Of a stretch of 64,000 bases of DNA, positions 5,190 to 59,727 are shown piece by piece (positions within the stretch are counted from its first letter, which is position 1; each line of letters opens with the position of its first letter). The translations under genes and the position numbers were made by a program. The notes below the pieces were generated by a model. It had not been told where the DNA came from. It worked only from the letters and a program-made list of their open reading frames with translations, and searched no databases. Origin of the DNA: Squalus acanthias. Its lineage: Eukaryota. The stretch is from assembly GCA_030390025.1 (NCBI GenBank), contig CM059432.1, positions 25,422,001 through 25,486,000 on the forward strand, in the 5' to 3' direction.

Positions 5190-6450
5190 CCTTTGAACTT
5201 TGCCCACTAAAAAGGCATACGAGTTTCTTGGCTTTATAAATAGTGGCATAGAGTAAAAAAGCAAGAAAGTTATGCTAAACTTCATAAAACACTGGTTAGG
5301 CCCCAGCTGGAGTATTGTGGCCAATTCTGGACACTACACTTTCGGAAGGATGTCAAGGCCTTAGAATGGTACCAGGGATGAAAGACTTCAGTTACGTGGA
5401 GATGCCAGAGAAACTGAAGTTGCGCGGGCCCAAAGGTAGCCAAACCAGCACAAAAGATTGAGGAATTTCAAGTGCAAATTACATCCAGCGCAAATCAAGG
5501 TTCCATGATCTTTTGCGCTAGTTTAAAAAACATCCTGGTTGAAGCTGGCCCCGCCCATAAAACTGGCCACGTCCTCAGACTGCATTAATCACCATTGCAA
5601 GTTTACGCTAATTGTGCCCGTTTGCGGGCCTTCGAGGAGGCTCTTAAAATTAAGCTTTTTTTTCTAGGTGCAAGGACACCAATAGGCACGTTTTTCATGC
5701 TTTTAAATATTATTTAAAAAAATTACTAAGAAAGCGACTACTGTACACCAATATAAATAGTAAATTATACTGTATAGATTTTTAAAGTCAATTGCAGTTA
5801 TTTAAAATCGGGTTACTCAAAGGTGGTGGACTAGACACTGCTTATTTTTTGTGATAAACCTATTTTCAGCTGTATTAATAAAGCTGCAACAGGTTACCAC
5901 TTTTAAATATATCAAGGAATAACTTTTAATGCACAAAAAAGTTTTAAAAATCACGTTTTCAAACGCTGGCCGATTGCGCTGGTTCATGCCAGATTTACGT
6001 TCGCAGATATGAAACTTGAGGAAAAAAAACACTTCTCAAAACAAGCGCAATTTTGAGCGCAATTTACGCCCGGATCGCTGGTTGCGCCCAAAGCGGAAAC
6101 TCCAAGCCCATGAATGATTTTGATAGAGTAAATAAGAAGAATCAGTTTCCAGTGGCAGAAGGGTCAGTAACCAGAGGACACAGATTTAAGGTAATTGGCA
6201 AAAGAACCACAGGCAACATGAGGAAAAAAATATTATGCAGTGAGTTGTTATGATCTGGAATGCACTGCCTGAAAGCAGATTCAGTAATAACTTTCAAAAA
6301 GGAATTCGATAAATACTTGAAGTGGAAAAACTTGCTGAGCCATGGGGAAAGAGCAGGGGAGTGGGACTAATTGGATAGCTCTTTCAAAGAGCCGGCACAG
6401 GTACGAAGGGCCGAATGCCCCGCTTCTGTGCTGTATCATTCTATGATTCT
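5190..6450 (+). mobile_element. CR1 3' fragment split by a Harbinger-type MITE-like insert (~5410-6108)
   Basis: CR1 ORF2 C-terminal peptides ([16 protein letters not shown]) and ATTCTATG tail. The intervening sequence ends AAACTCCAAGCCC, like other Harbinger TIRs in the window. Confidence 0.7.
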
Positions 6451-12431: not shown

Positions 12432-12670
12432 TATTAGATTTCACCAATTGCATTTATGTCATTAGGTTGGCTGTCATGACCTCTCTGGGGGCTGGAAACT
12501 CCACCTTCATTAATCCTCTGACAAAGCTGTGGCTCTGAGGTGACCAGCAGGTGGGCACAGAAAACCTTTGGTGCAGCCTGACCTCCTGGCATCCCTACCT
12601 TGACCCTCTTGCTTGTCTAAACAGAGAAGTCGCACAACACCAGGTTATAGTCCAACAGATTTATTTAATT

Positions 12671-12708
12671 TTACAAGCTTTCGGAGCTGTCGCTCCTTCG
12701 TCAGGTAA
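12671..12708 (-). ncRNA. Minimal type-I hammerhead ribozyme (PLE family B)
   Basis: UUAC-CUGACGA-A-GGAGC-GACA-GCUCC-GAAA-GC-UU-GUAA: both catalytic boxes, stem I UUAC/GUAA, stem II hairpin, palindromic short stem III. Confidence 0.85.
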
Positions 12709-12710
12709 GT

Positions 12711-15700
12711 TAGATACATACATAGATACATAGAAGATAGGAGCAGGAGTAGGCCATCCGGCCCTTTGAGCCTGCTCCGCCATTTAATGAGATCATGGCT
12801 GATCCTCCAATTCAGTATCCCGTCCCCGCCTTCTCTCCGTAACCCTTAACCCCTTTTGCCTGTAGAAATACATCTAATTCCCTCTTAAATATATTTAATG
12901 AGCTGGCGTACACTGCCCTCTGTGGCAATGAGTTCCACAGGTTCACCACCCTCTGAGTGAAGAAATTCCCCCTCATTTCTGTCCTAAATGGTTTAGCCCT
13001 TATCCTTAAATTATGTCCTCTAGTTCTGTTCTCACCCGCCAAGGGAAACATTCCTTCTGCATCTAGTCTGTCTAGACCTGTCAGAATTTTATACACTTCT
13101 ATGAGGTCCCCTCTCAATCTTCTAAACTCCAGTGTGTACATCCCTAAACTACATAGTCTCTCCTCATAGGTCAATCCCGCCATTCCTGGTATCAGCCTGG
13201 TGAATCGCCGCTGCACCCCCTCCATGGCAAGAACATCTTTCCTCAGATGAGGCGACCAAAACTGTACACAGTACTCGAGGTGTGGTCTCACCAGTGCCCT
13301 GTACAGCTGCAGCAAGGTATCCCTGTTCCTGTATTCCAACCCTTTTGCTATGAAGGCCAGCATACCGTTTGCCTTCTTGATCGCCTGTTGCACCTGCATG
13401 CTCGCCTTCAGTGACTGGTGTACAAGAACACCCAGGTCTCTCTGTACTTCCCCCTCTCCCAATTTATTGCCATTTAAATAATAATTTGCCCTCCCGTTCC
13501 TGCACCCAAGGTGGATAACTTCGCACTTGTCCACATTATAGTGCATCTGCCATTTATCCGCCCAATCACCCAGTCTGTCCAAATCGCTCTGGAGCTTCCT
13601 GGTCTCCTCCTTTGAGCCCACCCCCCCTCCTAGTTTAGTGTCGTCTGCAAATTTGGAAATGCTGCATCCGACTCCCTGATCCAGGTCATTAATGTAAATT
13701 GTGAACAGCTGGGGACCCAGGACAGATCCCTGTGGTACCCCACTTGTTACTGCCTGCCATTCAGAAAATGAGCCGTTTATTCCAACTCTCTGTTTTCTAT
13801 CTGACAGCCAGTTCTCTATCCACGTCAATACTTTCCCCTTTATCCCATGAGCTTCAATTTTCCCTGCTAATCTGTTATGTGGGACCTTATCGAAGGCCTT
13901 TTGGAAGTCCAGGTACACCACATCTACTGGCTCTCCCCCATCTATTTTACCAGTTACTCCCTCAAAAAATTCCAATAGATTAGTCAAGCACGATTTACCC
14001 TTTGTAAATCCATGTTGACTCTGTCCTATCCTGTCCCCATTTGCTAAGTGCTCCGCTATTTCATCCTTAATGATGGACTCCAGCATTTTGCCCACAACTG
14101 ATGTAAGGCTTACAGGTCTGTAATTACCTGCTTTTTCCCTACCCCCCTTTTTGAATAGTGGGGTAACGTTAGCTACCCTCCAATCCATGGGCACTGTTCC
14201 CGAGTCTAATGAATTCTGAAAAATCATACTTAGTGCATCCGCTATCTCTAGGGCCACCTCCTTCAGCACCCTAGGATGCATGTTATCAGGCCCTGGGGAT
14301 TTGTCCGCCTTCAATCCCTTTAGCTTCCTTAACACCATATCCTTAGAGATATTGACTTGCGTCAGTTCCTCCTTTGCAAATGTCCCTATTTTTCCCGATA
14401 TCCCAGGGAGGTTTTTTGTGTCTTCCTTCGTAAAGACTGACCCAAAGTATGCATTTAGTTGGTCTGCCATTTCCTTATTTCCCGTTATATATTCCCCCGT
14501 ATCTGACTGCAATGGGCCAACTTTGGTTTTCACCAGTCTTTTCCTCTTGATATACTTATAAAAGCTTTTGGAGTTAGTTTTTATATTTTCCGCCAGCTTG
14601 CTTTCGTAAGCTATTTTGCCCCTCTTGATTAAGCCCTTTGTCCTCCTTTGCTCTATCTTAAACTGTTCCCAATCTTCCGCTCTGGCGCTTTTTTTGGCTA
14701 TTTTATACGCCCTATCTTTGGATTTTATGCTGTCTCTAATTTCCCCTGTTATCCACGGTTGAGTCACCTTTTTAGATTTCCTTTTATGCCAGATTGGTAT
14801 AAACAATTTTTGCAATTTTGTCATTCTATCTTTAAATGCTTGCCATTGTTTATCTACCTCCAGTCCTCCCAGGAACGTTGTCCAATCAGACCTACTCAGT
14901 TCCCGTCTAATGGCATCATAATTCCCCTTGTTTAAATTCAGGACCTTAGTATCTGAGTCAATTTCTTCGCTCTCCATTTCGAGTGAGAAATCGATCATGT
15001 TATGATCGCTCTGACCCAAGGGTCCCCGTACAACAAGATTACTAATTAGTCCCTTCTCATTGCACAGTACCCAGTCCAATATAGCCTGTTCCCGAGTTGG
15101 TTCCTCGACATATTGATCCAGATAACCATCCCTTAAACACTCAAGGAATTCCTCCTCCTCATTATTTTTACTGATTAGGCTATTCCAATCTATATGTAAG
15201 TTAAAGTCACCTATGATGACAGCTGTGCTCTTATTGCACGCTTCTCTAATTTCCCTCGTGATGCCCTCCCCAACCTCTATTTTACTATTTGGAGGCCTAT
15301 ATACCACTCCTATTAATGTTTTTCGCCCCTCGCTATTTCTTAGCTCCACCCATATAGATTCTGTATTAACTGAGTTAATATCCTTCCTTTCAATTGCATT
15401 TATCCCTTCTTTTACCAGCAATGCTACCCCTCCTCCCTTTCTTTTTTGTCGATCCTTCCTAAATACTGAATACCCCTGTATGTTAAGCTCCCAGCCCTGC
15501 TCACCCTGCAACCATGTTTCCGTAATCCCAATTAGATCATAATTATTAACCTCTATTTCCACAGCTAATTCATCTACCTTGTTCCTGATGCTTCTCGCAT
15601 TAAGGTATAAAACCCTCAGGCTTTTTTTATGCTCACATTTTTTATGAATTAGTTTGGCCCTTTGTTTTTTGTTCCTCACCCTTTTACCATTTATTTCTGT

Positions 15701-16027
15701 CTGCCTTTCACTTTCCTCTATTTCACTACATAGGTTTCTAGCCCCCTGCCATACTAGTTTAAATGCTCCCGAACTGCTTTATCAAGATTAGCAATGAGAG
15801 AATCTCCCAGAATTCACAATTTAAACCCAGACAAAATCTATTCACATTATTCGCTACAACAAAGAGCACAGCCAAGACAATGAGATGTGTCCCAGGGGGT
15901 CCAACGTGTCAAACCACCTGCTGGCTGCATATCCTGTCAATTTGTGTTCTTGTGTTTTAAAAAAAAAAACAAAAAAAAAAACAAAAAAAAAACAAAAAAA
16001 ACACCTGGGAAGACCGGCCATGATGTC
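12711..16027 (-). mobile_element. Compact CR1 LINE with intact ORF2 and vestigial ORF1
   Basis: (TATG/TATC)n 3' tail; candidate TSD AAGT at 12707-12710 and 16028-16031; only ~270 nt upstream of the ORF1-like stop. Confidence 0.88.
12812..15679 (-). CDS. CR1 ORF2: APE endonuclease + reverse transcriptase, 955 aa uninterrupted (frame open to ~15778, no AUG near the start)
   Basis: EN motifs YLNARS, ITETW, VYRPP, IGDFN, LDW, SDH; RT motifs [31 protein letters not shown]. Confidence 0.96.
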   Translation of the reverse strand: MRNKKQRAKLIHKKCEHKKSLRVLYLNARSIRNKVDELAVEIEVNNYDLIGITETWLQGEQGWELNIQGYSVFRKDRQKRKGGGVALLVKEGINAIERKDINSVNTESIWVELRNSEGRKTLIGVVYRPPNSKIEVGEGITREIREACNKSTAVIIGDFNLHIDWNSLISKNNEEEEFLECLRDGYLDQYVEEPTREQAILDWVLCNEKGLISNLVVRGPLGQSDHNMIDFSLEMESEEIDSDTKVLNLNKGNYDAIRRELSRSDWTTFLGGLEVDKQWQAFKDRMTKLQKLFIPIWHKRKSKKVTQPWITGEIRDSIKSKDRAYKIAKKSARAEDWEQFKIEQRRTKGLIKRGKIAYESKLAENIKTNSKSFYKYIKRKRLVKTKVGPLQSDTGEYITGNKEMADQLNAYFGSVFTKEDTKNLPGISGKIGTFAKEELTQVNISKDMVLRKLKGLKADKSPGPDNMHPRVLKEVALEIADALSMIFQNSLDSGTVPMDWRVANVTPLFKKGGREKAGNYRPVSLTSVVGKMLESIIKDEIAEHLANGDRIGQSQHGFTKGKSCLTNLLEFFEGVTGKIDGGEPVDVVYLDFQKAFDKVPHNRLAGKIEAHGIKGKVLTWIENWLSDRKQRVGINGSFSEWQAVTSGVPQGSVLGPQLFTIYINDLDQGVGCSISKFADDTKLGGGVGSKEETRKLQSDLDRLGDWADKWQMHYNVDKCEVIHLGCRNGRANYYLNGNKLGEGEVQRDLGVLVHQSLKASMQVQQAIKKANGMLAFIAKGLEYRNRDTLLQLYRALVRPHLEYCVQFWSPHLRKDVLAMEGVQRRFTRLIPGMAGLTYEERLCSLGMYTLEFRRLRGDLIEVYKILTGLDRLDAEGMFPLAGENRTRGHNLRIRAKPFRTEMRGNFFTQRVVNLWNSLPQRAVYASSLNIFKRELDVFLQAKGVKGYGEKAGTGY

Positions 16028-18021
16028 AAGTCACGTTCTGTATCGTGACATGAACCCGATATCGCGATTGAGGCCATCCTCATGAGTGCGGAACTTGGCT
16101 ATCAGTTTCTGCTCTATGATTTTGCGCTGTCGTGTATCTCGAAGGCCGCCTTGGAGAACGCTTACCCGCAGATCCGAGGCTGAATGCCCCTGGCTGCTGA
16201 AGTGTTCCCCGACTGGGAGGCAACCCTCCTGCCTGGCGATTGTTGCGCGGTGTCCGTTCACATAGGTGCTGGAGGTGCCTGTGGAAACCTATTTCAGGAA
16301 AAGTGCACCTTCAGGAGAAGAGGAGGAAACATTTTGAGAAAGGGCCATTGCAGGGTTCAGATAATAGTTGTGAACTTCTTGCATTCGCGGGTTTATGATT
16401 TGATCTGAGCTCTTCAATGTGACTATTGCCTGGTGATCCTGCATTATCCTTTGTTTTGAAAAGGTGGGAATATGGCAATCAGCATGTTCCTGTGACTTTT
16501 AATATTCTAGTCCTTTGTCCTACAGCTTCAGCAAAGCCACCAGAAAGGAACCTTGTCTCTTTGTATAATTGTTGCAAAGAATCACTTTATTCTGTAGCTG
16601 TCAGCCCTCCATTTGTGATACAAGAACATATTCCCAAAGGATGCTGGCTACTTGTGTCATGTGAACGATGTAATGTTGCGGACTTTATAATGTAAATTAT
16701 ATGATTTAGTGCTCTGAAAAGTGCTTTCACTGCACAAACGACAAGTGGTTAAACAGACACGTTTCTGAACAGGTACAGAAATTGTCAGTTATTAGGCAAA
16801 TGTATCATGCTATGGTTGACTTCCTGAGTAAGGATTGGCCGATAGGTGAGTAATGTTCTCTAATAATATGCAGGGACTTCTGTCATTACAAATATATGAT
16901 TCCAGTAGCCCACAGGAACTTACAAGTTATTCTTTAGAGCAATTTAATTCACTGTGACGGATGGCTCCTACTCCTAAAAGCCACTAACTCAAGTATCTTC
17001 TCATCTGCTAGATTCTACCCCAGGCCAAACTTTCTCAAAACTGTGGCCTGTCATACTGAAGAACCTAATGTCTTTTTTTCTTTCCTTGATCTTCCTCGGC
17101 AATTGTTAATCGCAACCTTCAAAACCTTGGTGATACATGTTGCTAGTCTTCTGAAAATATTCCACCTTGTTTCCGGTGGTGCCTTTCTTAAAAAAACACG
17201 GCTAAATGTCAATAAGATTACGAAAACCCTTGCTGGCTGAGAATCATTTGTGCTTTATGGTGTTACTTGGATGAAGGATGAGTAAGGTCAGGGGAAGTAT
17301 GCAGCAAGCTTGGCTCGGAGCTCACGTGAGTTGGCTTAAAATATAGTCGGTTGCCAGTGACAAGGCATGCTGGGGGCTTACTTTTCTTCTCTTGTCAGCT
17401 GCATTACAAAGAGGAGCTGTAGCCCCAAGATTCTCGCACAGCATTGATGTTAACAGTTCCTGAAATAATTGCGAGATTTCTCTTTCACAAGATAGCTTTC
17501 AGCATTTTAACACATTTTTAGAAAAAGAAAAATGTGCTATTCCAATTTTTAGTCTTGTCGAGTGCTGTGTTTTATTCTGTAGCTAAAAGGGTGGGTCACA
17601 GGCTTTTTCCTTTAACCGCTATGTAACAAACCATGAGATACTGGCCCTCAGTCACACAGTCCCACCAGTTTCACCCATATTGAGAAGCACCAAGCTTCTG
17701 CTTGCTGCCTCCCTTCCCCCCCCCCCCCACCCACACCCCAAAAGCCACATGGGGCTGCGTTCTTGGGGAAGAAGTCGCTCGGAGAAGGTGGAGAGACTTC
17801 TCATGCGGCTGATCATTATCCTAAGGAGAAGTGATGAAATACTGCGCCCTGGTAAACAATGCATTGGTGTCTTGATGTATGCAGCTGTCCACGACAGCCT
17901 GGCTGGTTTGACAGGTGTCAACTGCGCCAGCCTGAAAGGAGACTGTGGCATGGAAATTCGAGACAGTAATGACTTTCACCTCCACAGGCAGAGCCTTCCC
18001 GGTAGTGAGTATATATATATA

Positions 18022-18499: not shown

Positions 18500-19812
18500 A
18501 GTTTGCAAAAGCACAAAGCTTGAGCACAGAGCTTGGAGACAGAGCTGGGTGCATCGCAATTGGAGTGGATCGCAAGCAGAGTGGAAGAATTTGGTGATGG
18601 TAGGAATCGGTGGAGAGGAGGAAGGCGGTTTCTCATGTCTCATGTCTAACTCAAAAGGAGGACGCTAAGTTAATTATTGAGATATCTAATGTCGTTTCTT
18701 TGTGTTTAGTATCTCTGTGGTTCTTGTTAAACTTGTGTAAATTTTTGTCTTCTTTCTCTCTAAGTTAGGTCAGTGGGTTAAACTAAAGTTTAGTTAGTAG
18801 TCTATAAATAGAGGCATGGAGGGCACCTCAGTCCCATTGAATGCACATCCTGTGCTATGTGGAAAGTCCAGGATACTTCTCGTGTCCTGGACAACCACAT
18901 GTGCAGGAAGTGTCGTCAGCTGAGGATCTCGAGCTCCGGGTTTCGGAGCTTGAGCAGCGGCTGGCGTCGCTGCAGTGCATCCACGAGGCTGAGAGCTACG
19001 TGGATAGCACATTTCAGGAGGTGGTCACCCCTGCAGCTTAAGAATTTGCAGGCAGAGAGGGAATGGGTGAATGCCAGACAGACAAGAAGGACCAGGCATG
19101 TAGTGCTGGAGTCCCCTGAGTGCATCTCGCTCTCCAACTGGTATTCTGTTCTGAATACTGGTGAGGGCGATGGTTCCTCTGGGGGGTACAGTCAGAACCA
19201 AGTCCATGGAACCATGGGTGGCTTAGCTGTACAAGAGAGAGGAGGAAGGTCAAAAAAGCAACAGTGAGGGGATTCAATAGTTAGGGGAACAGACAGGCGT
19301 TTCTGCGACTGCAGATGTGACTACAGGATGGTATGTTGCCTCCCTGGTGCCAAGGTCAAGAATGTCACTGAGAGGGTGCAGGACATTCTAAGGGGGGAGG
19401 GTGAACAGCCAGAGGTCATGGTCCATATCGGTACCAATGACATAGGTAGAAAGAGGAATGAGATCCTGCAGGCAGATATTAGCGAGCTAGGAAAGAGATT
19501 CTAAAGCAGGACCTCAAAGGTAGTAATCTCCAGATTGCTCCCGGTGCCACGCGCCAGTGAGTACAGAAATAGAGGATAGAGCAGATGAATACGTGGCTGG
19601 AGAGATGGTGCAGGAGGGATGGCTTTAGACTCCTGAGGCATTAGGGACCGTTTCTGGGGGAAATGGGACCTGTACAAGCCAGACGGGTTGCACCTCAACA
19701 GGACTAGGACCAATATCCTCGCAGGGGAGGTTTGCTAGTGCTGTTGGGGAGGGTTTAAACTAGCTTGGCTGGGGGATGGGAACCTGAGCATAGATTCAGA
19801 AGGGAGAGAAGC
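18500..19812 (+). mobile_element. CR1 5' half: 5' UTR + frameshifted ORF1 (Zn-finger, coiled coil, SGNH esterase)
   Basis: MCRKC, LELRVSELEQRL, GDSIVRGTDRRF, VHIGTND, DGLHLN; ends AVGEGLN*. Confidence 0.9.
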
Positions 19813-30512: not shown

Positions 30513-31235
30513 ATAGAAACATAGAAACATAGAAGATAGGAGCAGGAGTAGGCCATTCGGCCCCTCGAGCCTGTTCCGCCATTCGATGAGATCATGGCTG
30601 ATCATCCAAACTCAGTACCCTGTCCCTGCCTTCTCCCCATATCCCTTGATACCTTTAGCCTTAAGAAATATATCTAACTCCTTCTTGAATATATTTACTG
30701 ACTTGGCCTCAACTGCCTTCTGTGGTAGAGAATTCCACAGGTTCACCACTCTCTGGGTGAAGAAATTCCTCCTCATCTCTGTCCTAAATGGCTTACCCCT
30801 TATCTTTAGACTGTGACCTCTTGTTCTGGACTCACCCGCCATCGGGAACATCCTTCCTGCATCCAGTCTGTCTAGCCCTGTTAGAATTTTATAAGTTTCA
30901 ATGAGATCTCCTCTCATTCTTCTAAACTCCAGCGAGTATAAGCCCATTCGACCCAATCTCTCCTCGTACGTCATTCCTGCCATCCCAGGTATCAGTCTGG
31001 TGAATCTTCGCTGCACACCCTCCATGGCAAGAACATCCTTCCTCAGATAAGGCGACCAAAACTGCACACAATACTCAAGGTGTGGTCTCACCAAGGCCCT
31101 GTACAACTGCAGCAAGACATACTTGTTCCTGTACTCAAACCCTCTCGCTACGAAGGCCAACATACCATTTGCCTTCTTAACCGCCTGCTGTACCTGCATG
31201 CTTACCTTCAGCGACTGGTGCACAAAGACACCCAT
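30513..31235 (-). mobile_element. CR1 3' fragment, same subfamily as 12711-16027
   Basis: ORF 30612-31325 ends KGYGEKAGTGY* like the 955-aa ORF; CTATGTTT tail. Confidence 0.95.
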
Positions 31236-40580: not shown

Positions 40581-43500
40581 TTCTCTGAGCATGCGTCGTG
40601 AGCAGGAGCCCTTACCCGCCAGCCGGGAATTTACATGTCCACCTTGCATAGCCGGAAAATCGTCCCTTATAATGAGGGGAATCTGCTGGAATATTGACCA
40701 TTCTTCTGTGCTCACCTCCTCTCCCTTATCTGTGACCACTAAACACTTCACCTTCACCGCATAATCAGTTCTAATCACTTCGGGGCACTCATACGAATAG
40801 AAATATATCCACTTGACCATACACAATGTATAACACACATTGATTTCCACATTATACTACTCAGCAGTAACAAGGGATTGATAGCAGTGTCAAAGTGTCA
40901 GCAGAAATTACATCACACTTTTCCAGCCCTTGTCCGATAAAAATAAAACTAACGGTAGATATATCAATACCTATCAGGAGTAATGAATTAATAAATGTCA
41001 CTAGAGAATGAGAATTTGGTTATTGTTCGCGCTGGCTTCCTGAAAGCCCTGCTCATTATTCTACTGTGCGGACTGGTCAGATAAAATAATTTAATCAATC
41101 AAACCTCACAAACCTCAAATGGATCTCTTGGCCAGTAGCCAGTGTATAGTCTTCATCTGTCATTCAGTCATTTTGCAGGCTGCTTGGGTCCTCAATTTTT
41201 ATTGTTCTTCAGCTGATCTGAGCTCACCACTGGTCAGTCACTATACTTCTGCGTTCCCAGATCTGTCTCCCTTTCCCACCCCACCCCCCTCACTTCCCAC
41301 CCCTCCCCATACAAAATTTTCTCTACTCCAGGACAGTAATGACCTAGATTGGGATGACATCTCACAACAGCTTGCAGCCCTCACCCATGTGCCAAGTGTT
41401 TGTGTGTGTCAAATAACGGGCAAGCCTAGACTTCCACTGCTGGCCGCAGGTTGCGGTGGGGTAAGTCGAGTGGCCAGTAGTAGAAAATGGGTGGGAATGC
41501 CATCCGCCTCGTCCCACAGCATAGCTTGTGTGTGTGGGAACCATGGCCTCAAACAGGGAGGCACTTCATTTAAATAGTCATTTGAGGGCAAGACTGCCTT
41601 CATGCCATTGTCTGAAGCTTGCAGGACATCATTTCTAAAGGATGGTTGTGTGTATGGGCATCCAGCATTGCTAGGGGCATATAATATGTACATTATAGTT
41701 TACTGTAGCATTTGCATGTAATTGAGTCTGTTGAAAACCTTTTACATATTTTCAACTTTGGCTTTTATGCTGGATATAATTTTAGGTTACAACATCCCAG
41801 ACAGCTCCCACAGCTGATGTCTTGCTACCTATGTCTAAGAGAGTGTTTTTACTTGCCTAAATAGCTAGGTAATTTGTAGAATTCTCAAGGATGGAACAAA
41901 GGAACCTCATAGAATCATAGAATGGTTACAACATGGAAGAAGGCCATTCGGCCCATTGAGCCCATGCCAGCTCTCTGCAAGAGCACCTCAGCTAGTCCCA
42001 CTCTCCCGCCCTTTCCCCGTAGCCCTGCAATTTTTTTTCCTTCAGATACTTATCCAACTCCCTTTTGAAAGATAAGGTTGAGTCCGCCTCTACCACCCTT
42101 TCAGGCAGTGCATTCCAGATCTTAACCACTCGCTGTGTAAAAAAGTTTTTTCTTACGTCGCCTTTGGTTCTTTTGCCAATCACCTTAAATCTGTGTCCTC
42201 TGGTTCTCGACCCTTCTGCCAATGGGAACAGTTTCTCTCTATCTACTCTGTCCAGACCCCTCATGACTTTGAACACCTCTATCAAATCTCCTCTCACTCT
42301 TTTCTGCTCCAAGGAGAACAACCACAACTTCTCCAGTCTAGCAACATAACTGAAGTCCCTCATTCCTGAAATCATTCTCGTAAATCTTTTCTGCACCTTC
42401 TCTAAGGCCTTCACATCCTTCCTGAAGTGTGGTGTCCAGAATTGGACACAGTACTCCAGTTGGGGCCAAACCAGTGTTTTATACAGGTTCATCATAATTT
42501 CCTTGCTTTTGTACTATACCTCTATTTATGAAGCCCAAGATCCCGTAAGCCTTTTTAACTGCTTTCTCAACCTGCCCTGCCACCTTCAATGATTTGTGCA
42601 CACATACCACTAGGTCTCTCTGTTCATGCACCCCCTTTAGGATTGTACCACTTAATTTATATGTCCTCTCCCCATTCTTTCTACCAAAATATATCACTTC
42701 ACACTTTTCTGCGTTAAATTTCATCTGCCACGTGTCCGCCCATTTCACGAGTCTTCCTGAAGTCTATCACTCTCCTCCTCACTGTTCACTATACTTCCAA
42801 GTTTTGTGTCATCTGCAAATTTTGAAATTGTGCCCTGTACACCCACATCCAAGTCATTAATCTATATCAAGAAAAGCAGTGGTCCTAGAACCGACCCTTG
42901 GGGAACACCACTGTATACCTTCCTCCAGTCCGAAAAACAATCGTTCACCACTATTCTGTTTCCTGTCACTTAGCCAATTTCGTATCCATGCTGCCACTGT
43001 CTCTTTTATTCCATGGGCTTCAACTTTGCTGGCGAGCCTATTATGTGGCACTTTGTTGATGCCTTTTGGAAATCCATCTACTTCAACCGCATTACCCTCA
43101 TCAACCCTCTCTGTTACCTCATCAAAAAACTCGATCAAGTTGGTTAAACACGATTTGCCTTTAACAAATCTGTGCTGGCTTTCCTTAATTAATCCACACC
43201 TATCCAAGTGCCTGTTAATTTTGTCCCTGATGACTGCTTCTAAAAGATTCCCCACTACCACGGTTAAACTGACTGGCCTGTAGTTGCTGGGTTTATCTTT
43301 ACACCCTTTTTTGAACAATGGTGTAACATTTGCAATTTTCCAGTCCTCTGGATCCACCCCTGTATCTAAGGAGGGGATTGGAATATTATGGCCAGTACCT
43401 CCACGATTTCCGCCCTCAATTCCCTCAGTATCCTAGGATACATCCCATCTGCTCCTCGTTATTTATCTACTTTAAGTACAGCCAGCCTTTCTACTACCTC

Positions 43501-45894
43501 TTCTTTATCAATTTTTATCCTATCAAGTGTCTCCACTACCTCCTCCTTCACTATGTCTATGGAGCATCCTCTTCCTTGGTGAAGACTGATGCAAAGTACT
43601 CATTTAGTACCTCAACCATACCCTCTGCCTCCATACATAGGTCTTTTTGGTCCCTAATCGGCCCCACCCCTCCTCTTACTACCCTTTTATTATTTATATG
43701 CCTATAGAAGACTTTTGGTTCACCTTTTATGTAGCCTGCCATTCTATTCTCATACCCTCTCTTTGCCCTTCTTATTTTCTTTTTCACTTCTCCTCTGACC
43801 TTTATAGCCTGATTCTCAAATGTATTTGCAACCTGTCATATGCGCTCTTTTTCTGCTTCATCATATTCTCTATCTCTTTTGTCATCCAGGGAGCCCTGAC
43901 TTTAGTTGTCCTGCCTTTCCCTCTAGTGGGAATGTACCTCAACTATACCTGAACTATTTCCTCTTTAAAGGCAGCCCATTGCTCCATTACAGTTTTGCCT
44001 GCCAATCTTTGATTCCAGTTTACCCAGGCCAGATCCATTCTCATCCCACTGAAATTGGCCTTCCCCTAGCTAAACATTTTTACTCTAGACTGCTCCCTGT
44101 CCTTTTCCATAGTTAATCTAAACCTTATGATACTATGATCACTGTTCCCTAAATGTTCACCGACTGACACTTGCTCCACTTGACCTACCTCATTCCCCAG
44201 AACCAGATCCAGCAATGCCTCCTCCCTCGTCGGGCTGGGAACACACTGATCAAGAAAGTTCTCCTGAACACACTTCAGAAATTCTTCCCCTTCTCTGCCC
44301 TTAACAGTCTATATTAGGATTGTTGAAGTCCCCCATTATCACTACTCTATAGTTCTTGCACCTCTCTGTAATTTCTCTGCAAATTTGCTCCTCCATATCT
44401 TTCCCACTATTTGGTGGTCTATAGAATACACCTAGTAGTGTAATGGCACCTCAATTATTTCTTAACTCTAGACATATAGATTTTGTCTTTGACCCCTCCA
44501 GGACATCCTCCCTCTCCAGCACTGTAACATTCTCCTTAACCAATACTGCCACACCATCTCACATCTTTCCTTCCCTATCTTTCCTGAACACCTTATAACC
44601 AGGAATATTTAATACCCAATCCTGCCCTTTTCTGAGCCAGGTCTCAGTTATTGCCACAAGATCATATTCCTATGTGGCTACTTGTGCCTGCAGCTCACTT
44701 ACCTTGTTTACTACACTTCGTGTGTTCACATACATACACTGTAAACCCATCTTAGACCATCCTGTATTCTCTCTTAGTTTGACCCCACCTAATACCTTAC
44801 CATTTCTTACTTTAGTGCTCTCTGCCTCTTCCAATCCTTTGAGCACTTTATTTCCCCTTTCTAATGTTACATCCTGGTGCCCATCCCCCTGCCAAATTAG
44901 TTTAAACCCTCCCCAACAGCACTAGCAAACCTCCCCGCGAGGATATTGGTACCGGCTCTGTTGATGTGCAACCCGTTCGGCCTGTACAGGTCCCACCTCC
45001 CCCAGAACCGGTCCCAATGCCCCAGGAATCTGAAGCCCTCCCTCCTGCACCATCTCTCCAGCCACACATTCATCTGCTCTATCCTCCTATTTCTATACTC
45101 ACCCGCGCGTGGCACCGGAAGTAATCCGGAGATTACTAGCTTTGAGGTCCTGCTTTTTAATCTCTTTCCGAGCTCTCTATAGTCTGCCTGCAGGACCTCA
45201 TCCCTTTTTACTACCTATGTCATTGGTACCGATATGGACCACGACCTCTGGCTGTTCACCTCCCCTCTCAGAATGTTCTGCAGCCACTCAGAGAGATCCT
45301 TAACCCTGGTACCAGGGAGGCAACATACCATCCTGGAGTCACATCTGCAGCCTCAGAAACGCCTGTCTGCTCCCCTAATTGTTGAATCTCCTACCACTAT
45401 TGGTCTCCCACTTTTCTTCCTCCCGCCCTGAATAGCTGAGCCACCAGTGGTGCCATGGACTTGGCTCTGGCTGTACACCCCTGAGGAAACATCACCCTCA
45501 CCAGTACTCAGATCAGAACACTGGTTGGAGAGCGAGATGCACTCAGGGGACTCCTGCACTACCTGCCTGGTCCTCCTCTTCTGTCTGGTGGTCACCCATT
45601 CCCTCTCTGCCTGCGCACTCCTTAGCTGTGGGGTGACCACCTCCTGAAACGTGCTATCCACGTAGCTCTCAGCCTCACGGATGCCAGCGACGCCAGCTGC
45701 CGCTCAAGCTCCGAAACCCGGAGCTCGAGCTCCTCCAGCTGACGACTCCTCCTGCACACGTGGTTGTCCAGGACTCGGGAAACGTCCTGGAGTTCCCACA
45801 TGGCAAAGCATATATATTCCATGGGACTGAGCTGCCCTGCCATCCCTCTATTTGATAGACTATTAACTAACTTACAGAAAAAAACTTAAGACTA

Positions 45895-49733: not shown

Positions 49734-50358
49734 GGAAAAAGCTGGAGATGGAACAGGGTTTTAAGCAAGTGCAGGGACAGGGAGCGGGGTGAGAGGAGGA
49801 AAGAACAAAAGGGAAGGTCTGTGATAGGATGGAAGGCAGGAGAGATTAAGGGGTAAAAATTCAGTTGGTTGCGCCTCCCGTTAGCGCCTTAAGAGGGCGC
49901 TAATGGGGCGCAAAGCCGCTAGCGCCCGGGCGCAGCGATGTTTGCGCCGCTCGGAAACTTAACTAGACATTGTGCGGCGGCGCTAAACCTTACCGCCGCG
50001 ACCACCTGCGCGCGCAGATTGTGACGTCATTCCATGGTGCAACGCCCTTGTGGCGCCCCGGAGCGGAAATTGAGTGGCGCCCCCTGCCTTACCGCCTGGC
50101 GCATCCAACGACCGGAAGACTGGAACGCTATCAATCGCTGTGGGCTGGGGGGGGCGCTATTTAAAGGGGCCTCTTCCTGTCTTTTTCTGTGGTTGACATT
50201 TTTGCACCACTCGTTCTGAGAGAGAGAGAGAGATTCGGAGAGAGAGAAAGAGAGACTTCTGCATTGAGTCAACGCTTTGTGAGGTAGTTTTGCCTACTGA
50301 TCCTAACTTCGCTGGTACTTTGGTTGCTGTCCTTCATTACTTTGCTTGCAAAGAGACT

Positions 50359-51518
50359 ATGGGGGCTGCACTGATTGGGGGCGTCGTCCTGCTCCAGCTG
50401 AATCGGAGGACACAGAGACGCAGAGAGAGAGTGGCAATGATGGCCAGACGGAGGAGGGCCAACAGGCGTATGTACAGGAGAGCTTACCCTCCCAGGGTAT
50501 ATCGTGAACAGCTCTCCTACATTCATATGTCTGAGGAGCTGTGTTTGCGAAGGCTGCGATTCAGCAAGGAGGTGGTCACTGAGCTCTGCCACCTGCTGCA
50601 GCCAGATCTGCAGCCTCAACTGAGGTCCAGGACGTCTCTGTCGGTGGCAGTAAAGGTCACAGTGGCTCTCAACTTCTATGCTACTGGCTCATTTGAAGCT
50701 GCTGCTGGGGACCTCGCCAATATCTCCCAGTTCGTGGTGCATTGCTGCATCCGGCAGGTCACAAATGCCCTCTTTAAAAGGAGACGAGAGTTCATCTCTT
50801 TCCCCATGACCCCAGACAAGCAGCGTGACCGCGCTCTGGGCTTTGCGAGGATAGCGGGCTTCCCCATGGTGCAGGGCGCCATTGACTGCACGCATGTGGC
50901 TTTGCGTGCTCCACATGAGAATGCCGAGGAATTCCGGAACAGAAAGGGGTTCCATTCCTTGAATGTTCAGTTGGTCTGTGACCACAGACAGCTGATACTC
51001 GCTGTCAATGCCCACTATCCTGGCAGCTGCCACGATGCTTTTATCCTGCGCCAGACTACTGTGGCAGAACTTTTCGAGGCACCGCATCAGCCAGTTGGTT
51101 GGCTTCTCGGGGACAAGGGGTATCCATTGAGCACCTGGCTGATGACACCGCTCCGTACGCCCAACACCCCTGCTGAGCTGCGGTACAATGAGAGCATCAA
51201 GCTACCAGGAACATCATTGAGCGCACAATCGGCGTGCTGAAGCAACGGTTCCGCTGTCTCGACCATTCTGGAGGAGCCCTGCAGTACTCGCCTGAGCGAG
51301 TATCCAACTTCGTAGTTGTGTGCTGCATGTTGCATAACATGGCAATCGTCAGGACCCAGCCAATGCCACCAGGCCTTGGAGCACCACCAGAGGAGGAGGA
51401 GGAAGAGGAGGAAGAGGACGAGGAGGATGATCATCAGCAGCACCAAGGCGGGAGGGCGGCCCACAATGGTGAAACTGCAAGGGCCGTCCGTCAACGGCTG
51501 ATAGCAAGCCGCTTCTAG
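50359..51518 (+). pseudogene. Harbinger (HARBI1-like) DDE transposase with one frameshift at ~51195
   Basis: GAIDCTH, NRKGFHSLNVQ, PGSCHD, LLGDKGY. Adding 1 nt restores HQATRNIIERTIGVLKQRF and an acidic C-terminus. Confidence 0.93.
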
Positions 51519-51830
51519 GGCCCCTGCTGTGGAAATGGCTTCTGCCGTTGCTAACAACATCAATGAACCCAGCACGCAACCCCTAAGCCGGCCAAGGCAC
51601 CAATAATTCCAAACACCAAACATGTATATTTTGAATACAAAAACTTATTTATTTTACAAACTCTGTGTGTGTCATTTCCTCATGACAAACTCATAGAAAT
51701 AAACACAAAAAAACAGTCAATAACATAACTGGTTCTCACAACCTGGAGATAATGTCCAAAACACTAAACAAAAGTTGGACCACGAACCTCGGCCTTTAAT
51801 AAAAAAATGACCAGCATTTTGTCACACCTC

Positions 51831-53650
51831 CTACTTTTTGCCCTTCGAGGGTGATCGCCTTCCCTTGCGCACTTCCCCCCTTCTAACCCTACTGCTCCTC
51901 CGTAATGGGACCTCAGTGGCTGCAGCAAGGCTGGTGGAAGGCTGCTGATCGTCAGACCCTGACACTGCAGATGCCCCTGAAGGACGGCCTCGACCAGTTC
52001 TGGGCCTGGAGGGCCTGGCTGCAGACTGCACCAACTCTGCATGGGCGGCAGCAGTCTGTCCTACAGGCGGTGGCAAGTGCAGTGGAGAAGTGACAGTGTT
52101 GGCAGCAGGAATGCTGTCATCGTGAGAGAGGACAGCAACTCCCTGCTCGCCCGACACACTGGCACTCCCACGGGGCAGCACTTCAGCATCCGGAGCAATC
52201 TGCTGGAGCACAGATTGCTGGCCTGCTGCGGCATGGTGAGAGCCCCGGGGACATGTGAATGAACCATCGAGGTTGGCAGCAGTCAGTGCTCGCGTGGCCT
52301 CAATCTGAGTCTGCATGAGAGCAGTCAGAGATGGGATCACGGCAGTCAGTGACTGAATTGCAGCACTAAGCGTTAGTGTGGCATCCTCCTGTGCTACAGC
52401 GAAGTGCTCCACACTCCTTGCCAGTGACTCAATGCATTCGGGCACCCTTCCCACTGCACCCATGAGCTCAGTGTGCATGCCCACCGCCTGGGTGTTCATT
52501 TCTGCGATCAGCCGCTCCTCTGCGTCCATTGCAGTAGGAGTGTCTGGCATACTCTCCCTCTGGGGAGAAGGCCCCCGTTCTTCCCTACCCCCCCCATGGC
52601 GTTGCTGCAGCCCGCTGGGTCCTGGAGCTTCACCATCATCAGCCCCTTCCCCCCTGCTCCCCTCCGGGGAAGGCGTGTTCCCAGTGTGGCCATGGGCTTC
52701 CTCGGGAGAGGGTGGCACTGATGCTCCGGCTTCCTCTTCCTCCTCGGCTGCAGCTTCACTCCCACTGGCAGCTTCAGGGCCCGTCTCCTCAGCTGGTGAA
52801 TCACCATCTGAAAGCAGGGAGGTACAAGAGTGGCTTTAGCGTGAGGACAGGGTGGCAGTAAGGGAGGAATAAGTGCAGCGAGTTAGCAAGTTGGATTGAA
52901 AGTGTCAAAGGCTGGTGTTGTGAGGGACAAGTGGAAGGACAGAGGACAAAAAGGTGATGACCTTACCATTGCTGTCCAGAACGGGGTCGGCGTCTCCAGT
53001 GGCGACGGGACCGATCACCCGGCTTGCCACAATCCTGTGGACGCGCTCCTCCAGATCGCTGAGGGGTTGCAGCTGAGGCCGCCCTCCACCTGTCCGTTGC
53101 TGCTGTCTCCTATTATGCGCCAGCTTGGCCTGCAAGTAAAAGGACAGTATCTGAGTAAATATACAGCCATGGTCTTGCCAAATGTGCCTCCCATAGGTGA
53201 ATAGCCCTTACTGTATACAGCCATGGTCTTGCCTGATGTGCCTCCCATAGGTGAATAGCCCTTACTGTATGCAAAGTGTGGAATGTGTGTGTGTGTTTCA
53301 TGAAAGGGCCATAGGTGTTGGATGAGTGTTGTGCATTGGGGTTTTAAGACCCTCTGGCCATAGAGTGAGGTTGAGATGGAGGGATGGAGAGGTATTGAGA
53401 AAAAGCCACTCACCCTGACGACCCGAGTGAGGTCGTTGAACTTTTTGCGGCATTGAACATGGGTCCTGGGCACCATGCTCCTGGAGGAGACGCTCTGAGC
53501 CACCTCCCTCCACACTCTTCTGTACTCGCGTGGCAAAGGCCTCCTGCCACTCTCAGGGAAGAGTATACATCTTCTGCGCTCCACCGCGCCAACCAGAGCA
53601 TCCAAGGCCTGCTCGGTGAAGCGCTGAGCTCGTTCTCTCACCCTCTCCAT
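51831..53650 (-). CDS. Harbinger Myb/SANT-like DNA-binding protein, 3 exons (53650-53414, 53129-52967, 52807-51831), 458 aa
   Basis: RAQRFTEQALDAL...WREVAQSV...QCRKKFNDL; AKLAHNRRQQQRTGGG. GT-AG introns in phase 0 and 1 give one open frame. Confidence 0.88.
53161..53270. repeat. Tandem duplication, 2 x ~54 bp, in Myb intron 1
   Basis: ATACAGCCATGGTCTTGCC..ATGTGCCTCCCATAGGTGAATAGCCCTTACTGT occurs twice. Confidence 0.92.
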
Positions 53651-56492: not shown

Positions 56493-59400
56493 GGGGTTTA
56501 AACTAATTGGCAGGGGGATGGGATATGGAGTGGAGCTATAGTAGGGGGTGATGCACAGCCAAATATGGGGAAAAAAACAAGTCAGCCTGAAAGGCAGAGC
56601 AAATATGTAATTGCACAAGGGAGTATGGCAAGGCTGGATGGCATTTATTTTAATGAGAAGTTGCACAACACCAGGTTATAGTCCAACAGTTTTATTTGAA
56701 ATTACGAGCTTTCGGAGCGCTGCTCCTTCTTCAGGTACAGGAGCAGAGCTCCGAAAGCTCGTAATTTCAAATAAAACTGTTGGACTATAACCTGGTGTTG
56801 TGCGACTTCTCATTTGTGTCCACCCCAGTCCAACACCGGCATCTTCGCATCGTGACATTTATTTTAATGCAAGGAGTCTTGCGAGTAAGGTAGATGAATT
56901 GAAGGTGTTGATGAACACATGGGAGTATGATATTGTTGCTATCACAGAGACATGGTTGAGGGAGGGGCAGGACTGGCAGCTCAATATTCTGGGGTATAGA
57001 ATCTTCAGGCGAGACAGAGGGAGTTTAAAAGAGGAGGGGGTGTTGCAATATTAATCAAGGAGTCAATTACTGCTGTAAGGAGGGATGATATCTTAGCAGG
57101 TTCCTCTAATGAGGCCATATGGGTAGAACTTAAAAACAAAAAGGGGGCAAGCACTTTGCTGGGAGTGTACTATAGGCCCCCAAACAGTCAGGGGGAGATA
57201 GAGGAACAGATTTGTAGGCAAATCTCAGAGAAGTGTAGAAATAATAGGGTAATAATAGTAGGGGATTTCAACTTCCCCAATATTAACTGGGATAGTCAGA
57301 GTGTGAAAGGCTTAGAGGGTGTGAAATTCTTAAAGTGCATCCAGGAGAGCTTTATGAGCCAGCATGTAGAAAGTCCTACAAGAGAGGGGGCGGTACTGAA
57401 CCTAATTCTAGGGAAGGTAGCTGGGCAAGTGGTAGAAGGGTTAGTAGGAGAGCATTTTGGTGACAGTGACCATAATTCGGTGAGATTTAAGGTAGTCATG
57501 GAAAAGGACAAAGATGGACCGGAAATAAAGGTTCTAAATTGGGGGAAGGCCGATTTTAATATGATAAGGCAGGATCTGGCCAAAGTGGACTGGGATCAGC
57601 TACTTGTAGGAAAATCTACATCAGAGCAGTGGGAGTCTTTCAGAAAGGAAACAGAGAGAGTACAACGGCAGCATGTTCCTGTAAAGGTCAAGGGTGGGAC
57701 CAACAAGCCCAGGGAACCCTGGATGTCAAGGGATATACGAGAATGGATTAGGAAAAAAAGGGAGGCTTTTGGCAGATACAAAGGACTAAAAACAGTGGAA
57801 TCCCTAGAGGAGTATAGAAAGTGCAGGGGGGTACTTAAAAAAGAAATTAGGAGAGCGAAGAGGGGGCATGAAATAACACTGGCGGGTAAAATAAAGGAAA
57901 ATCCCAAGGTGTTTTATTAGTATATTAAGGGCAAGAGGATAACCAGGGAAAGAGTAGGGCCCATTAGGGACCAAAGTGGCAATCTGTGTGTAGAGCCAGA
58001 AGATGTAGGTGGGATTTTAAATGAATATTTTGCATCTGTGTTCACTATGGAGAAGGACGATGTAGGCATAGAAATCAGACAGGGGGATTGTGATATACTT
58101 GAACAAATTAGTATTGAGAGGGAGGAGGTACTAACGGCTTTAGCAGGCTTAAAAGTGGATAAATCCCCAGGCCCAGACGAGATGTATCCCAGGCTGCTGT
58201 GTGAGGCAAGGGAGGAGATTGCAGGGGCTCTGACACAAATTTTCAGAACATCTCTGGCCACAGGGGAGGTGCCAGATGACTGGAGAACAGCTAACGTAGT
58301 ACCATTATTCAAGAAGGGTAGTAGGGATAAACCAGGGAATTACAGGCCAGTGAGCCTAACATCAGTGGTCGGGAAATTATTGGAAAAAATTCTGAGGGAC
58401 AGAATTAGTCTCCACTTGGAGAGGCAAGGATTAATCAAGGATAGTCAGCATGGCTTTGTCAGGGGGAGATCATGTCTAACCAATTTGATTGAATTTTTCG
58501 AGGGGGTAACTAGGTGTGTGGATGAGGGTAGTGCAGTTGATGTGGTCTACATGGACTTCAGTAAGGCTTTTGACAAAGTCCCGCATGGGAGATTGGTCAA
58601 GAAGGTAAGAGCCCATGGGATCCAGGGCAACTTGGCACATTGGATCCAAAATTGGCTGAGTGGCAGGAGGCAGAGGGTGATGTTCGAAGGTCGTTTTTGT
58701 GACTGGAAGCCTGTGTCCAGTGGTGTACCGCAGGGATCGGTGCTGGGTCCTTTGCTGTTTGTAGTGTACATTAATGATTTAGATATGAATGTAGGAGGTA
58801 TGATCAGTAAGTTTGCAGATGACACGAAAATTGGTGGGGTGGTAAATAGCGAGGAGGGAAGCCTCAGGCTACAGGACGATATAGACGGGTTGGTTAGATG
58901 GGCAAAACAGTGGCAAATGGAATTTAACCCTGAAAAGTGTGAGGTGATGCATTTTGGGAGGACTTAACAAGGCAAGGGAATACACAATGAATGGTAGGAC
59001 CCTAGGAAGGACAGAGGATCAGAGGGACCTCGGTGTGCAAGTACATAGATCCCTGAAGGCAGCAGGACAGGTAGATAAGGTGGTTAAAAAGGCATATGGG
59101 ATACTTGCCTTCATTAGCCGAGGCATAGAATATAAGAGCAGGGAGGTTATGATGGAGCTGTACAAAACGCTAGTTAGGCCACAGCTGGAATACTGTGTGC
59201 AGTTCTGGTCACTATAGGAAGGATGTGATTGCATTGGAGAGGGTGCAGAGGAGATTCACCAGGATGTTACCTGGCCTGCAGCGCTTCAGCTATGATGAGA
59301 GACTGGACAGGCTGGGGTTGTTTTCCTTAGAGCAGAGCAGGCTGAGGGGGGACCTGACTGAGGTGTACAAAATTATGAGGGGTATAGATAGGGTAGATAG

Positions 59401-59727
59401 AAAGGAACTTTTCCCCTTAGTAGAGGGGTCAATAACAAGGGGGCATAGTTTCAAGGTAAGGGGCAGGAGGTTTAGAGGGGATTTGAGGAAAAACTTTTTC
59501 ACCCAGAGGGTGGTTGGAATCTGGAACTCACTGCCTGAAAGGATGGTAGAGGCAGGAACTCTCACAACATTCAAGAAGCATTTAGATGAGCACTTGAAAC
59601 GCCATAGCATACAAGGCTACGGACCAAGTGCTGGAAAATGGGATTAGAATAGACAGGGCTTGATGGCTGGCGCGGACACGATGGGCCAAAGGGCCTCTTT
59701 CTATGCTGTATAACTCTATGACTCTAT
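56493..59727 (+). mobile_element. CR1 LINE truncated at the ORF1/ORF2 junction, ORF2 with a few lesions
   Basis: IYFNARSL, ITETW, VGDFN, SDH, QHGF, KFADDTK in ORFs 56800-59647; ACTCTATG tail. Confidence 0.95.
56656..56855. mobile_element. 200-bp palindromic PLE family B pLTR insertion with hammerhead (56703-56737, -)
   Basis: 14-bp TSD CATTTATTTTAATG (56642-56655, 56856-56869); ~75-bp inverted arms; UAC-CUGAAGA-AGGAGCAGCGCUCC-GAAA-GC-UC-GUA. Confidence 0.92.

What the first reader, a model, noticed from the sequence alone, without database searches (positions are those of the whole stretch)
15740..15780. Conserved U_UUA_AAC slippery heptamer at the CR1 ORF1/ORF2 junction: candidate programmed -1 frameshift
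Seen: four diverged CR1 copies end ORF1 with xxT TTA AAC stop (15757-15763 -, 19754-19760 +, 44900-44906 -, 56497-56503 +). The -1 frame reads FKLVWQG / FKLAWLGDG / FKLIWQGDG; the fourth copy is one nt short just after the site. In the intact copy the -1 frame is continuous with ORF2, whose first in-frame AUG lies after the endonuclease domain. A G-rich TGGCAGGGGG follows closely. Established: X_XXY_YYZ UUUAAAC is a canonical -1 PRF site in viruses. Inference: ORF2 is made as an ORF1-ORF2 fusion. I cannot say whether this is already reported for CR1.
Basis: partly seen in the sequence, partly recalled or inferred. Interest (0 to 1): 0.75.

Follow-up and report, generated by a model that had tools for sequence, protein, structure and literature searches.

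The report
Ribosome-slip signal in CR1 retrotransposons
CR1 jumping genes from cartilaginous fish, birds and other hosts keep the same seven-letter virus-type slippery sequence exactly where their first gene ends, which suggests that they make their copying enzyme by a programmed backward slip of the ribosome, as retroviruses do.

Summary
Real and wider than the window. TTTAAAC plus a TAA/TAG stop sits at all four sites. Only copies B and C keep ORF1; A and D start just before the site. Esterase ORF1 proteins of sharks, chimaera, bony fish, turtles, lizards and a crocodile end in Leu-Asn; a sister clade containing a zebrafish protein never does (0 of 23). In DNA found with a pattern that left the silent positions free, 10 of 14 CR1 loci have the exact heptamer against 0 of 104 other matches, while neighbouring third positions are saturated. 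The -1 frame runs to the endonuclease, mostly without AUG. No conserved stem-loop; a G-rich box starts 10 nt downstream. Best reading: programmed -1 frameshifting gives an ORF1-ORF2 fusion (0.83); no fusion protein was observed. Ten searches and passages of 15 papers showed no such report for CR1, but three founding CR1 papers were unavailable. This scan noted a similar junction before on other DNA (e1-7814081).

The parts
15757..15763 (-). Copy A: U_UUA_AAC heptamer
15754..15756 (-). Copy A: ORF1-frame stop (TAG) directly after the heptamer
15741..15746 (-). Copy A: G-run starting 10 nt after the heptamer (candidate stimulator)
12812..15763 (-). Copy A: intact ORF2 in the -1 frame (51-codon linker, APE endonuclease, reverse transcriptase); first AUG at 14998
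15764..15810 (-). Copy A: last few ORF1 codons; the 5' end of the copy lies somewhere in this stretch
   Evidence: boundary inferred, no target-site duplication found
18818..19763 (+). Copy B: broken ORF1 (Cys-rich start, esterase) ending in Leu-Asn-stop
19754..19760 (+). Copy B: heptamer; CR1 likeness ends a few dozen bases later, ORF2 lost
44897..45843 (-). Copy C: broken ORF1 with SGNH/GDSL esterase ending in Leu-Asn-stop
44900..44906 (-). Copy C: heptamer
44876..44930 (-). Block shared by diverged CR1 subfamilies: last ORF1 codons, heptamer, stop and 24 nt of G-rich downstream sequence
   Evidence: depth peak; loose ends at 44876 and 44930
42004..44906 (-). Copy C: broken ORF2; -1 frame open 78 codons and into the endonuclease start
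56497..56503 (+). Copy D: heptamer, with at most about 13 nt of ORF1 left before it
56504..59635 (+). Copy D: stop (TAA), linker with a one-base loss and a 214-bp insertion, broken ORF2

Best explanation
Esterase-type CR1 LINEs express ORF2 by programmed -1 ribosomal frameshifting. Ribosomes translate ORF1 to its last two codons (UUA AAC). Most stop at the next codon and release ORF1p. A minority slip back one base on U_UUA_AAC, read on through a 30-95 residue linker and make an ORF1-ORF2 fusion (esterase-endonuclease-reverse transcriptase), like Gag-Pol. Shown: the motif, its conservation at silent positions, its place at the ORF1 stop, the -1 phase, the open linker, the missing AUG. Inferred: the slip, the fusion protein, and that the adjacent stop and the G-rich box 10 nt downstream act as the stimulator.
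For: Silent-site test: 10 of 14 CR1 loci exact, 3 with one and 1 with two changes, against 0 of 104 non-CR1 matches to the same pattern (by the script's own tblastn classes, before four loci were reassigned by reading their translations, 8 of 14 against 2 of 104). TTA 14 of 15 at the terminal Leu against 1 of 14 at the DGLHL Leu. Third positions of the preceding codons are 22-48% identical between lineages, except two bird pairs at 57 and 61%. The majority state is TTTAAAC in 8 of 9 lineages grouped by eye; codon usage gives about 0.015 per lineage. Protein level: 11 of 11 shark/ray hits end in LN; LN stays at the stop although the tail after DGLHL varies from 26 to 39 residues; the residue before LN is one of 14 kinds but only 1 of 70 (1 of 48 distinct tails) is a residue lacking an NNT codon, against 15% nearby. 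Stops in the linker: 4, 34 and 58 in the -1, 0 and +1 frames over 522 codons of 9 copies; AUG in 1 of these 9. Reads and contigs pile up on 44873-44935 in 3 of 4 runs (RNA run X22: about 3500 against about 590 and 1270 in flanking bins; the fourth run laid only 10 reads), more than on the esterase catalytic motif. U_UUA_AAC is among the shiftiest heptamers on mammalian ribosomes (PMC5009743 passage).
Against: No direct evidence of a shift or a fusion protein. No conserved stem-loop: z from -1.9 to +1.8 in 17 of 18 junctions, one 9-bp hairpin (L056, z -2.7); a two-tier G-quadruplex pattern in only 7 of 18; pseudoknots were not modelled. Two of three copies of one bird subfamily share a TGA at codon 16 of the -1 frame (possibly CpG decay, no further copies found). 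AUGs lie in the linker in copies C, D and L051. 11 of the 14 outside loci are old bird-type copies from one data set, so they are not independent, and some other silent positions are also skewed (GAT 13 of 14, GGG 13 of 16, G at codon -11 in 15 of 16). Buried positions -6, -7 and -10 of ORF1p also avoid E/Q/K/M/W (2-3 of 70). 4 of 13 copies with a visible endonuclease start have indels in the linker and were left out of the stop count. Several lineages outside the vertebrate clade do not end in LN (9 of 21). A 2026 survey reports CR1 families without ORF1 (PMC13343379 passages); these would need another way to start ORF2.
Confidence: 0.83

Rival explanations
1. Termination-reinitiation: ribosomes stop at the ORF1 stop and restart ORF2 at a non-AUG or nearby AUG codon, as in L1 or SART1; the conserved block is a restart signal and ORF2p is a separate protein.
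For: SART1 uses a UAAUG stop-start (PMC3708506 and PMC3894237 passages); L1 ORF2 tolerates sense changes of its first AUG (PMC1965478 passage). The stop always follows the heptamer directly, and some families have AUGs in the linker.
Against: The -1 codon overlapping the stop is CUA, a poor start; UGA, which would make it CUG, is nearly absent (second stop letter A in 16 of 18). No AUG before the endonuclease in 8 of 9 indel-free copies. Reinitiation does not predict an X_XXY_YYZ pattern at three silent positions.
Confidence: 0.1
2. The block is conserved for a non-translational RNA or DNA role (splice acceptor, internal promoter, packaging or protein-binding site), and ORF2 is made from another transcript.
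For: Conservation runs 24 nt past the heptamer; copies A and D begin just upstream of it.
Against: The AG of a would-be acceptor is AA in 7 of 18 junctions; none of the 15 joints shown (169 not shown) has RNA-read support and no indels were listed; a shorter transcript would still lack an AUG before the endonuclease.
Confidence: 0.05
3. Only the ORF1p C-terminal Leu-Asn (and the Phe-Lys-Leu of the overlap) is selected at protein level; the codons are inherited passively.
For: Leu and Asn are invariant columns in alignment A1, which was built from LN-ending proteins; the SGNH fold often ends this way among the bacterial pattern matches.
Against: Those bacterial matches have the heptamer in 0 of 104 cases; neighbouring third positions are saturated while these are fixed. 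Selection on Phe-Lys-Leu would itself require that the -1 frame is translated through the site.
Confidence: 0.02

Closest known systems
Viral and retroviral -1 frameshifting at X_XXY_YYZ sites, U_UUA_AAC type (IBV and other coronaviruses; PMC5009743, passages)
   Same: Same heptamer; structural/RNA-binding gene upstream, polymerase gene downstream in the -1 frame; predicted fusion product.
   Different: Host is a non-LTR retrotransposon; no conserved stem-loop 5-9 nt downstream was found; the ORF1 stop follows the heptamer directly (recalled, from no call: some retroviral and arterivirus sites also do this).
Protein-stimulated frameshifting of arteriviruses and cardioviruses (PMC5009743, passages: trans-acting factor, 11-14 nt spacer)
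   Same: A short conserved element about 10 nt downstream instead of a stable structure at 5-9 nt.
   Different: The element here is G-rich; no binding protein is known; pure analogy.
Vertebrate CR1 with esterase ORF1 (CR1 subgroup 7 in PMC4120745; 'Canonical-CR1' in PMC13343379; passages)
   Same: Esterase ORF1, APE endonuclease and reverse transcriptase ORF2, frequent 5' truncation.
   Different: The passages seen treat ORF1 and ORF2 as separate genes; the word frameshift occurs 0 times in either main text.
SART1 stop-start and L1 unconventional initiation (PMC3708506, PMC3894237, PMC5009743, PMC1965478; passages)
   Same: ORF2 of a LINE translated from the bicistronic RNA.
   Different: Those restart translation and give a separate ORF2p; here there is no AUG at the stop and a slippery heptamer is conserved.
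Other non-LTR or Penelope-like elements with proposed frameshifts: Paramecium LINEs (+1 or reinitiation, PMC5405496), Drosophila HeT-A gag (PMC5009743), Penelope-like elements with frameshift and pseudoknot (PMC8557442 figure legend); Dictyostelium TRE5-A (recalled and from a scan note only)
   Same: Frameshifting has been proposed in other target-primed retroelements.
   Different: Different clades, signals or directions; none is the CR1 U_UUA_AAC junction.

Membership tests
Canonical -1 programmed frameshift signal | X_XXY_YYZ heptamer in phase with the upstream ORF | tested here: met
   T TTA AAC in the ORF1 frame at 4 of 4 window sites and 10 of 14 outside loci
Canonical -1 programmed frameshift signal | Downstream ORF open in the -1 frame from the site, no own start | tested here: met
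   983 codons in copy A; 4/34/58 stops in -1/0/+1 frames of 9 linkers; AUG in 1 of 9; AUG also in D and L051
Canonical -1 programmed frameshift signal | Conservation at synonymous positions | tested here: met
Canonical -1 programmed frameshift signal | Stable stem-loop or pseudoknot 5-9 nt downstream | tested here: not met
   No significant stem-loop in 17 of 18 junctions; pseudoknots and long-range pairing not modelled; a G-run at +11 instead
Canonical -1 programmed frameshift signal | Heptamer-dependent trans-frame product | not testable with these tools
   needs reporter, ribosome profiling or mass spectrometry
CR1 LINE, esterase type | ORF2 with APE endonuclease and reverse transcriptase | tested here: met
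   Pfam Exo_endo_phos and RVT_1 in copy A
CR1 LINE, esterase type | ORF1 with SGNH esterase | tested here: met
   Lipase_GDSL_2 E 1.7e-6, below the curated cut-off, for the C-terminal 105 aa of copy C; 62-74% identical to shark and ray proteins carrying PF13472
CR1 LINE, esterase type | Placement in the CR1 rather than L2 clade by reverse-transcriptase tree | not tested
   Only an esterase tree was built: shark proteins group with turtle, lizard and crocodile ones, apart from the zebrafish-containing clade (quick tree). Calling that clade L2/ZfL2-1-like is recalled.
Stop-start (SART1-type) coupling | AUG overlapping or adjoining the ORF1 stop | tested here: not met
   No AUG overlaps the stop in any of 18 junctions

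The most novel reading that the evidence does not exclude
CR1, the dominant retrotransposon of most vertebrates, has since at least the common ancestor of jawed vertebrates made its reverse transcriptase only as a Gag-Pol-like esterase-endonuclease-RT fusion, and the shift is driven not by a pseudoknot but by the adjacent stop plus a G-rich box read by a protein, perhaps ORF1p itself, which would give feedback control of the ORF1:ORF2 ratio. None of this has been put in print.
Probability: 0.22. Interest if true: 0.9.

Novelty: new variant of a known kind. Interest (0 to 1): 0.73.

Why it matters
How LINEs translate ORF2 is called an open question in the reviews seen. A conserved -1 frameshift in CR1 gives a directly testable answer for a very widespread clade, and changes what the CR1 enzyme is: a fusion carrying a lipid-binding esterase, not a free ORF2p. 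It predicts that ORF2 depends in cis on ORF1 translation, that ORF2 models starting at the first Met are wrong (in copy A they lose the whole endonuclease), and that attempts to mobilise CR1 in culture must keep the natural junction. It would also add a cellular-genome frameshift site with an unusual stimulator.

Tried and rejected
No whole genome is held for this window, so copies could not be counted genome-wide. Protein-pattern scans of genome and viral contigs found no CR1 junction (one search gave two weak 29% matches that were not used). A decayed ORF1 upstream of copy A looked plausible by eye but scored like shuffles and control windows at DNA and protein level: rejected. A conserved hairpin was sought and not found; the G-quadruplex energies printed look unreliable and were not used. 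A 5'-truncation hotspot at the junction was not shown by read ends (table 6 empty; depth is confounded by subfamily divergence). No RNA holder was listed on record, and RNA run X22 covers both strands about equally, so nothing is claimed on expression. ORF2 relatives of L056 (94 proteins) are unnamed or mis-named and start at predicted codons, so they gave neither host nor junction. A pattern scan for more copies of the bird subfamily with the shared TGA gave 38 chance matches. Rfam found nothing at 12500-16200. The careful tree did not finish; the quick tree was used.

Full report
Observation. The heptamer TTTAAAC lies at 15757-15763 (-, copy A), 19754-19760 (+, B), 44900-44906 (-, C) and 56497-56503 (+, D), each read T TTA AAC in the upstream frame and followed by TAG or TAA. 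The ten-letter form TTTAAACTAR occurs 5 times in the window against 0.27 expected; four are these sites. Copy A has a 983-codon -1 frame with endonuclease and reverse transcriptase domains and its first Met at codon 256, after the endonuclease. Copies B and C hold a broken ORF1 ending in an SGNH-type esterase and are 86% identical. Copies A and D are 5'-truncated close to the site: upstream of A nothing scores above shuffles, and upstream of D is a host element also present intact at about 51850-53000, which resumes after the CR1 copy. The best protein hits are from sharks and rays at 62-74% identity, so the host is probably a cartilaginous fish (inference).

Protein evidence. All 11 hits end in Leu-Asn. 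An HMMER search gave 907 hits, the best 150 listed. Of the 160 proteins then held, 114 had the DGLHL-type motif, 79 had tails of 23-30 residues, and 45 of those ended in LN; LN also ends tails of 31, 32 and 39 residues. Named LN-ending members come from sawshark, zebra shark, smooth-hound, stingray, chimaera, sturgeon (record flagged as possible contamination), eel, mormyrid, turtles, lizards, a snake and a crocodile. A quick tree of 92 esterase domains, built without the last residues, has LN in 41 of 48 rows of the vertebrate CR1 side, 0 of 23 in a well-supported clade with a zebrafish protein, and 12 of 21 among unnamed outer lineages. If the first T of the heptamer is fixed, the residue before LN cannot be E, Q, K, M or W: it is one of these in 1 of 70 proteins (of 172 held) although 14 residue types occur there, against 15% at positions -4 to -14 (p 1e-4; 1 of 48 distinct tails, p 0.003). 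Three buried hydrophobic positions are nearly as low, so this test is supportive only.

DNA evidence. Fourteen are CR1 junctions from host DNA: 11 old bird-type copies from one data set and L051, L056, L059. Twelve were flagged by tblastn, L051 and L111 were added and L004 and L050 removed by reading their translations. Ten of 14 have the exact heptamer, against 0 of the other 104 (8 of 14 and 2 of 104 by the raw flags). In 16 aligned copies the terminal Leu is TTA in 14 of 15, Asn is AAC in 15 of 16 and the preceding codon ends in T in 14 of 16; the DGLHL Leu uses six codons (TTA 1 of 14) and a conserved Gly uses four. Some other positions are skewed too, as expected from related bird copies, and copy B is out of register upstream. 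Between eight lineage representatives third positions are 22-48% identical, 57 and 61% for two bird pairs, so the fixed heptamer is not shared drift. With codon usage from copies A and D the chance of the three silent states is about 0.015 per lineage; 8 of 9 lineages (grouped by eye, independence assumed) have it.

Frame and start codons. The endonuclease start lies in the -1 frame 32 (L059), 46 (L056), 51 (A), 57 (C), about 62 (L085, L096, L114) and 92-94 codons (L083, L071) after the site. These 9 linkers hold 4, 34 and 58 stops in the -1, 0 and +1 frames over 522 codons, and an AUG in one (C). Left out: D, L094, L105 and L118 (indels in the linker), B (ORF2 lost), L051, L095, L100 and L111 (contig ends); D and L051 do have linker AUGs. 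Against the reading, L085 and L096 share a TGA at codon 16 where L114 has TGC; CpG decay of an arginine codon would explain all three but was not tested.

Reads. Laid at 80% likeness on 44600-45200, RNA reads of X22 and contigs of X1 and X3 peak at 44873-44935; X21 laid 10 reads only. Loose ends at 44876 and 44930 show other subfamilies diverging outside this block. None of the 40 best-supported differences shown (219 hidden) falls in 44896-44938. The junction is thus the stretch most shared between subfamilies, more than the catalytic motif.

Stimulator. No stable hairpin is conserved. Across 18 junctions a G-run occupies heptamer positions 18-22 (13-16 of 18 per position), then A (13 of 18) and GGG (12-13 of 18); several of these are third positions of the -1 frame, which points to an RNA-level element, though the linker is purine-rich anyway. 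L056 has a 9-bp hairpin in the same place instead. The stop is TAA or TAG in 16 of 18. I take the stop plus the G-rich box as the likely stimulator; this step is inference.

Mechanism and rivals. Best: -1 frameshifting to an ORF1-ORF2 fusion (0.83). Rivals: non-AUG reinitiation (0.10), a non-translational role (0.05), protein-only constraint (0.02). The motif works like a viral U_UUA_AAC site; it fails one feature of the canonical signal as tested, the downstream structure, so it is filed as a variant.

Literature. Ten searches of the held library returned no paper on frameshifting in CR1. I saw term-matched passages only, no whole texts and no supplements, of PMC3708506, PMC13343379, PMC4120745, PMC2734521, PMC5009743 (first 300,000 of 449,034 characters), PMC5405496, PMC1965478, PMC11835228 (first half), PMC3905857, PMC8557442, PMC4255032, PMC3894237, PMC5006619, PMC2612034 and PMC11303007. 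The frameshifting review has no whole-word mention of CR1 in the part held and describes LINE ORF2 expression as an unknown kind of initiation. Haas 1997, Kajikawa 1997 and Kapitonov and Jurka 2003 were not held, nor were Repbase entries or supplements seen; a passing earlier suggestion there is quite possible (my estimate about one in three). An unchecked note of this scan from another genome reached a similar idea (e1-7814081); it is not independent support.

Verdict. Observation confirmed with corrections; interpretation supported by comparative evidence, untested at the bench; new variant of a known kind; interest 0.73.

Noticed in passing
window 15764-15810 (-) and 56484-56496 (+): Two of the four copies that include the junction begin within about 45 and 13 nt upstream of the heptamer. 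A post-hoc pattern; could reflect RNA cleavage or a template switch at a stalled ribosome. Read ends did not show a hotspot.
   Followed up: partly
window 50197-53746 and 55620-56483 / 59726-61100: DDE_Tnp_4 transposase (50197-51240 +) facing a Myb/SANT-domain gene (53015-53746 -) and a further ORF (51831-52835 -); a second, inverted relative is split by CR1 copy D. The label PIF/Harbinger is recalled.
   Followed up: partly
window 56652-56869: 214-bp insertion in the start of copy D's endonuclease: 76-nt inverted arms (97%) and 17-nt flanking direct repeats; one arm matches 12624-12707, just beyond the 3' end of copy A.
   Followed up: partly
window 15960-16300 (-) and 12620-12710: Copy A seems to sit inside an older element whose reading frame recalls the end of a Penelope-type endonuclease (recalled likeness, no search run).
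   Followed up: no
window 12812-15763 (-): Fully intact ORF2, so a very young insertion, from a family with another piece at 30513-31234 (83% identical).
   Followed up: partly
L056:428-470: A distant esterase-type element of unnamed host (ORF1 P0282, ORF2 P0173) has the same heptamer and stop but a 9-bp hairpin 10 nt downstream in place of the G-run; relative P0283 also ends in LN.
   Followed up: partly
L051:1-257: A 257-bp contig in a bacterial assembly is a CR1 junction resembling turtle protein P0025, probably contamination.
   Followed up: partly
window 5518-5527 (-): A fifth TTTAAACTAG with no CR1 junction context seen.
   Followed up: no
L085 and L096, codon 16 of the -1 frame: Shared TGA in two of three copies of one bird CR1 subfamily; unexplained.
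   Followed up: partly
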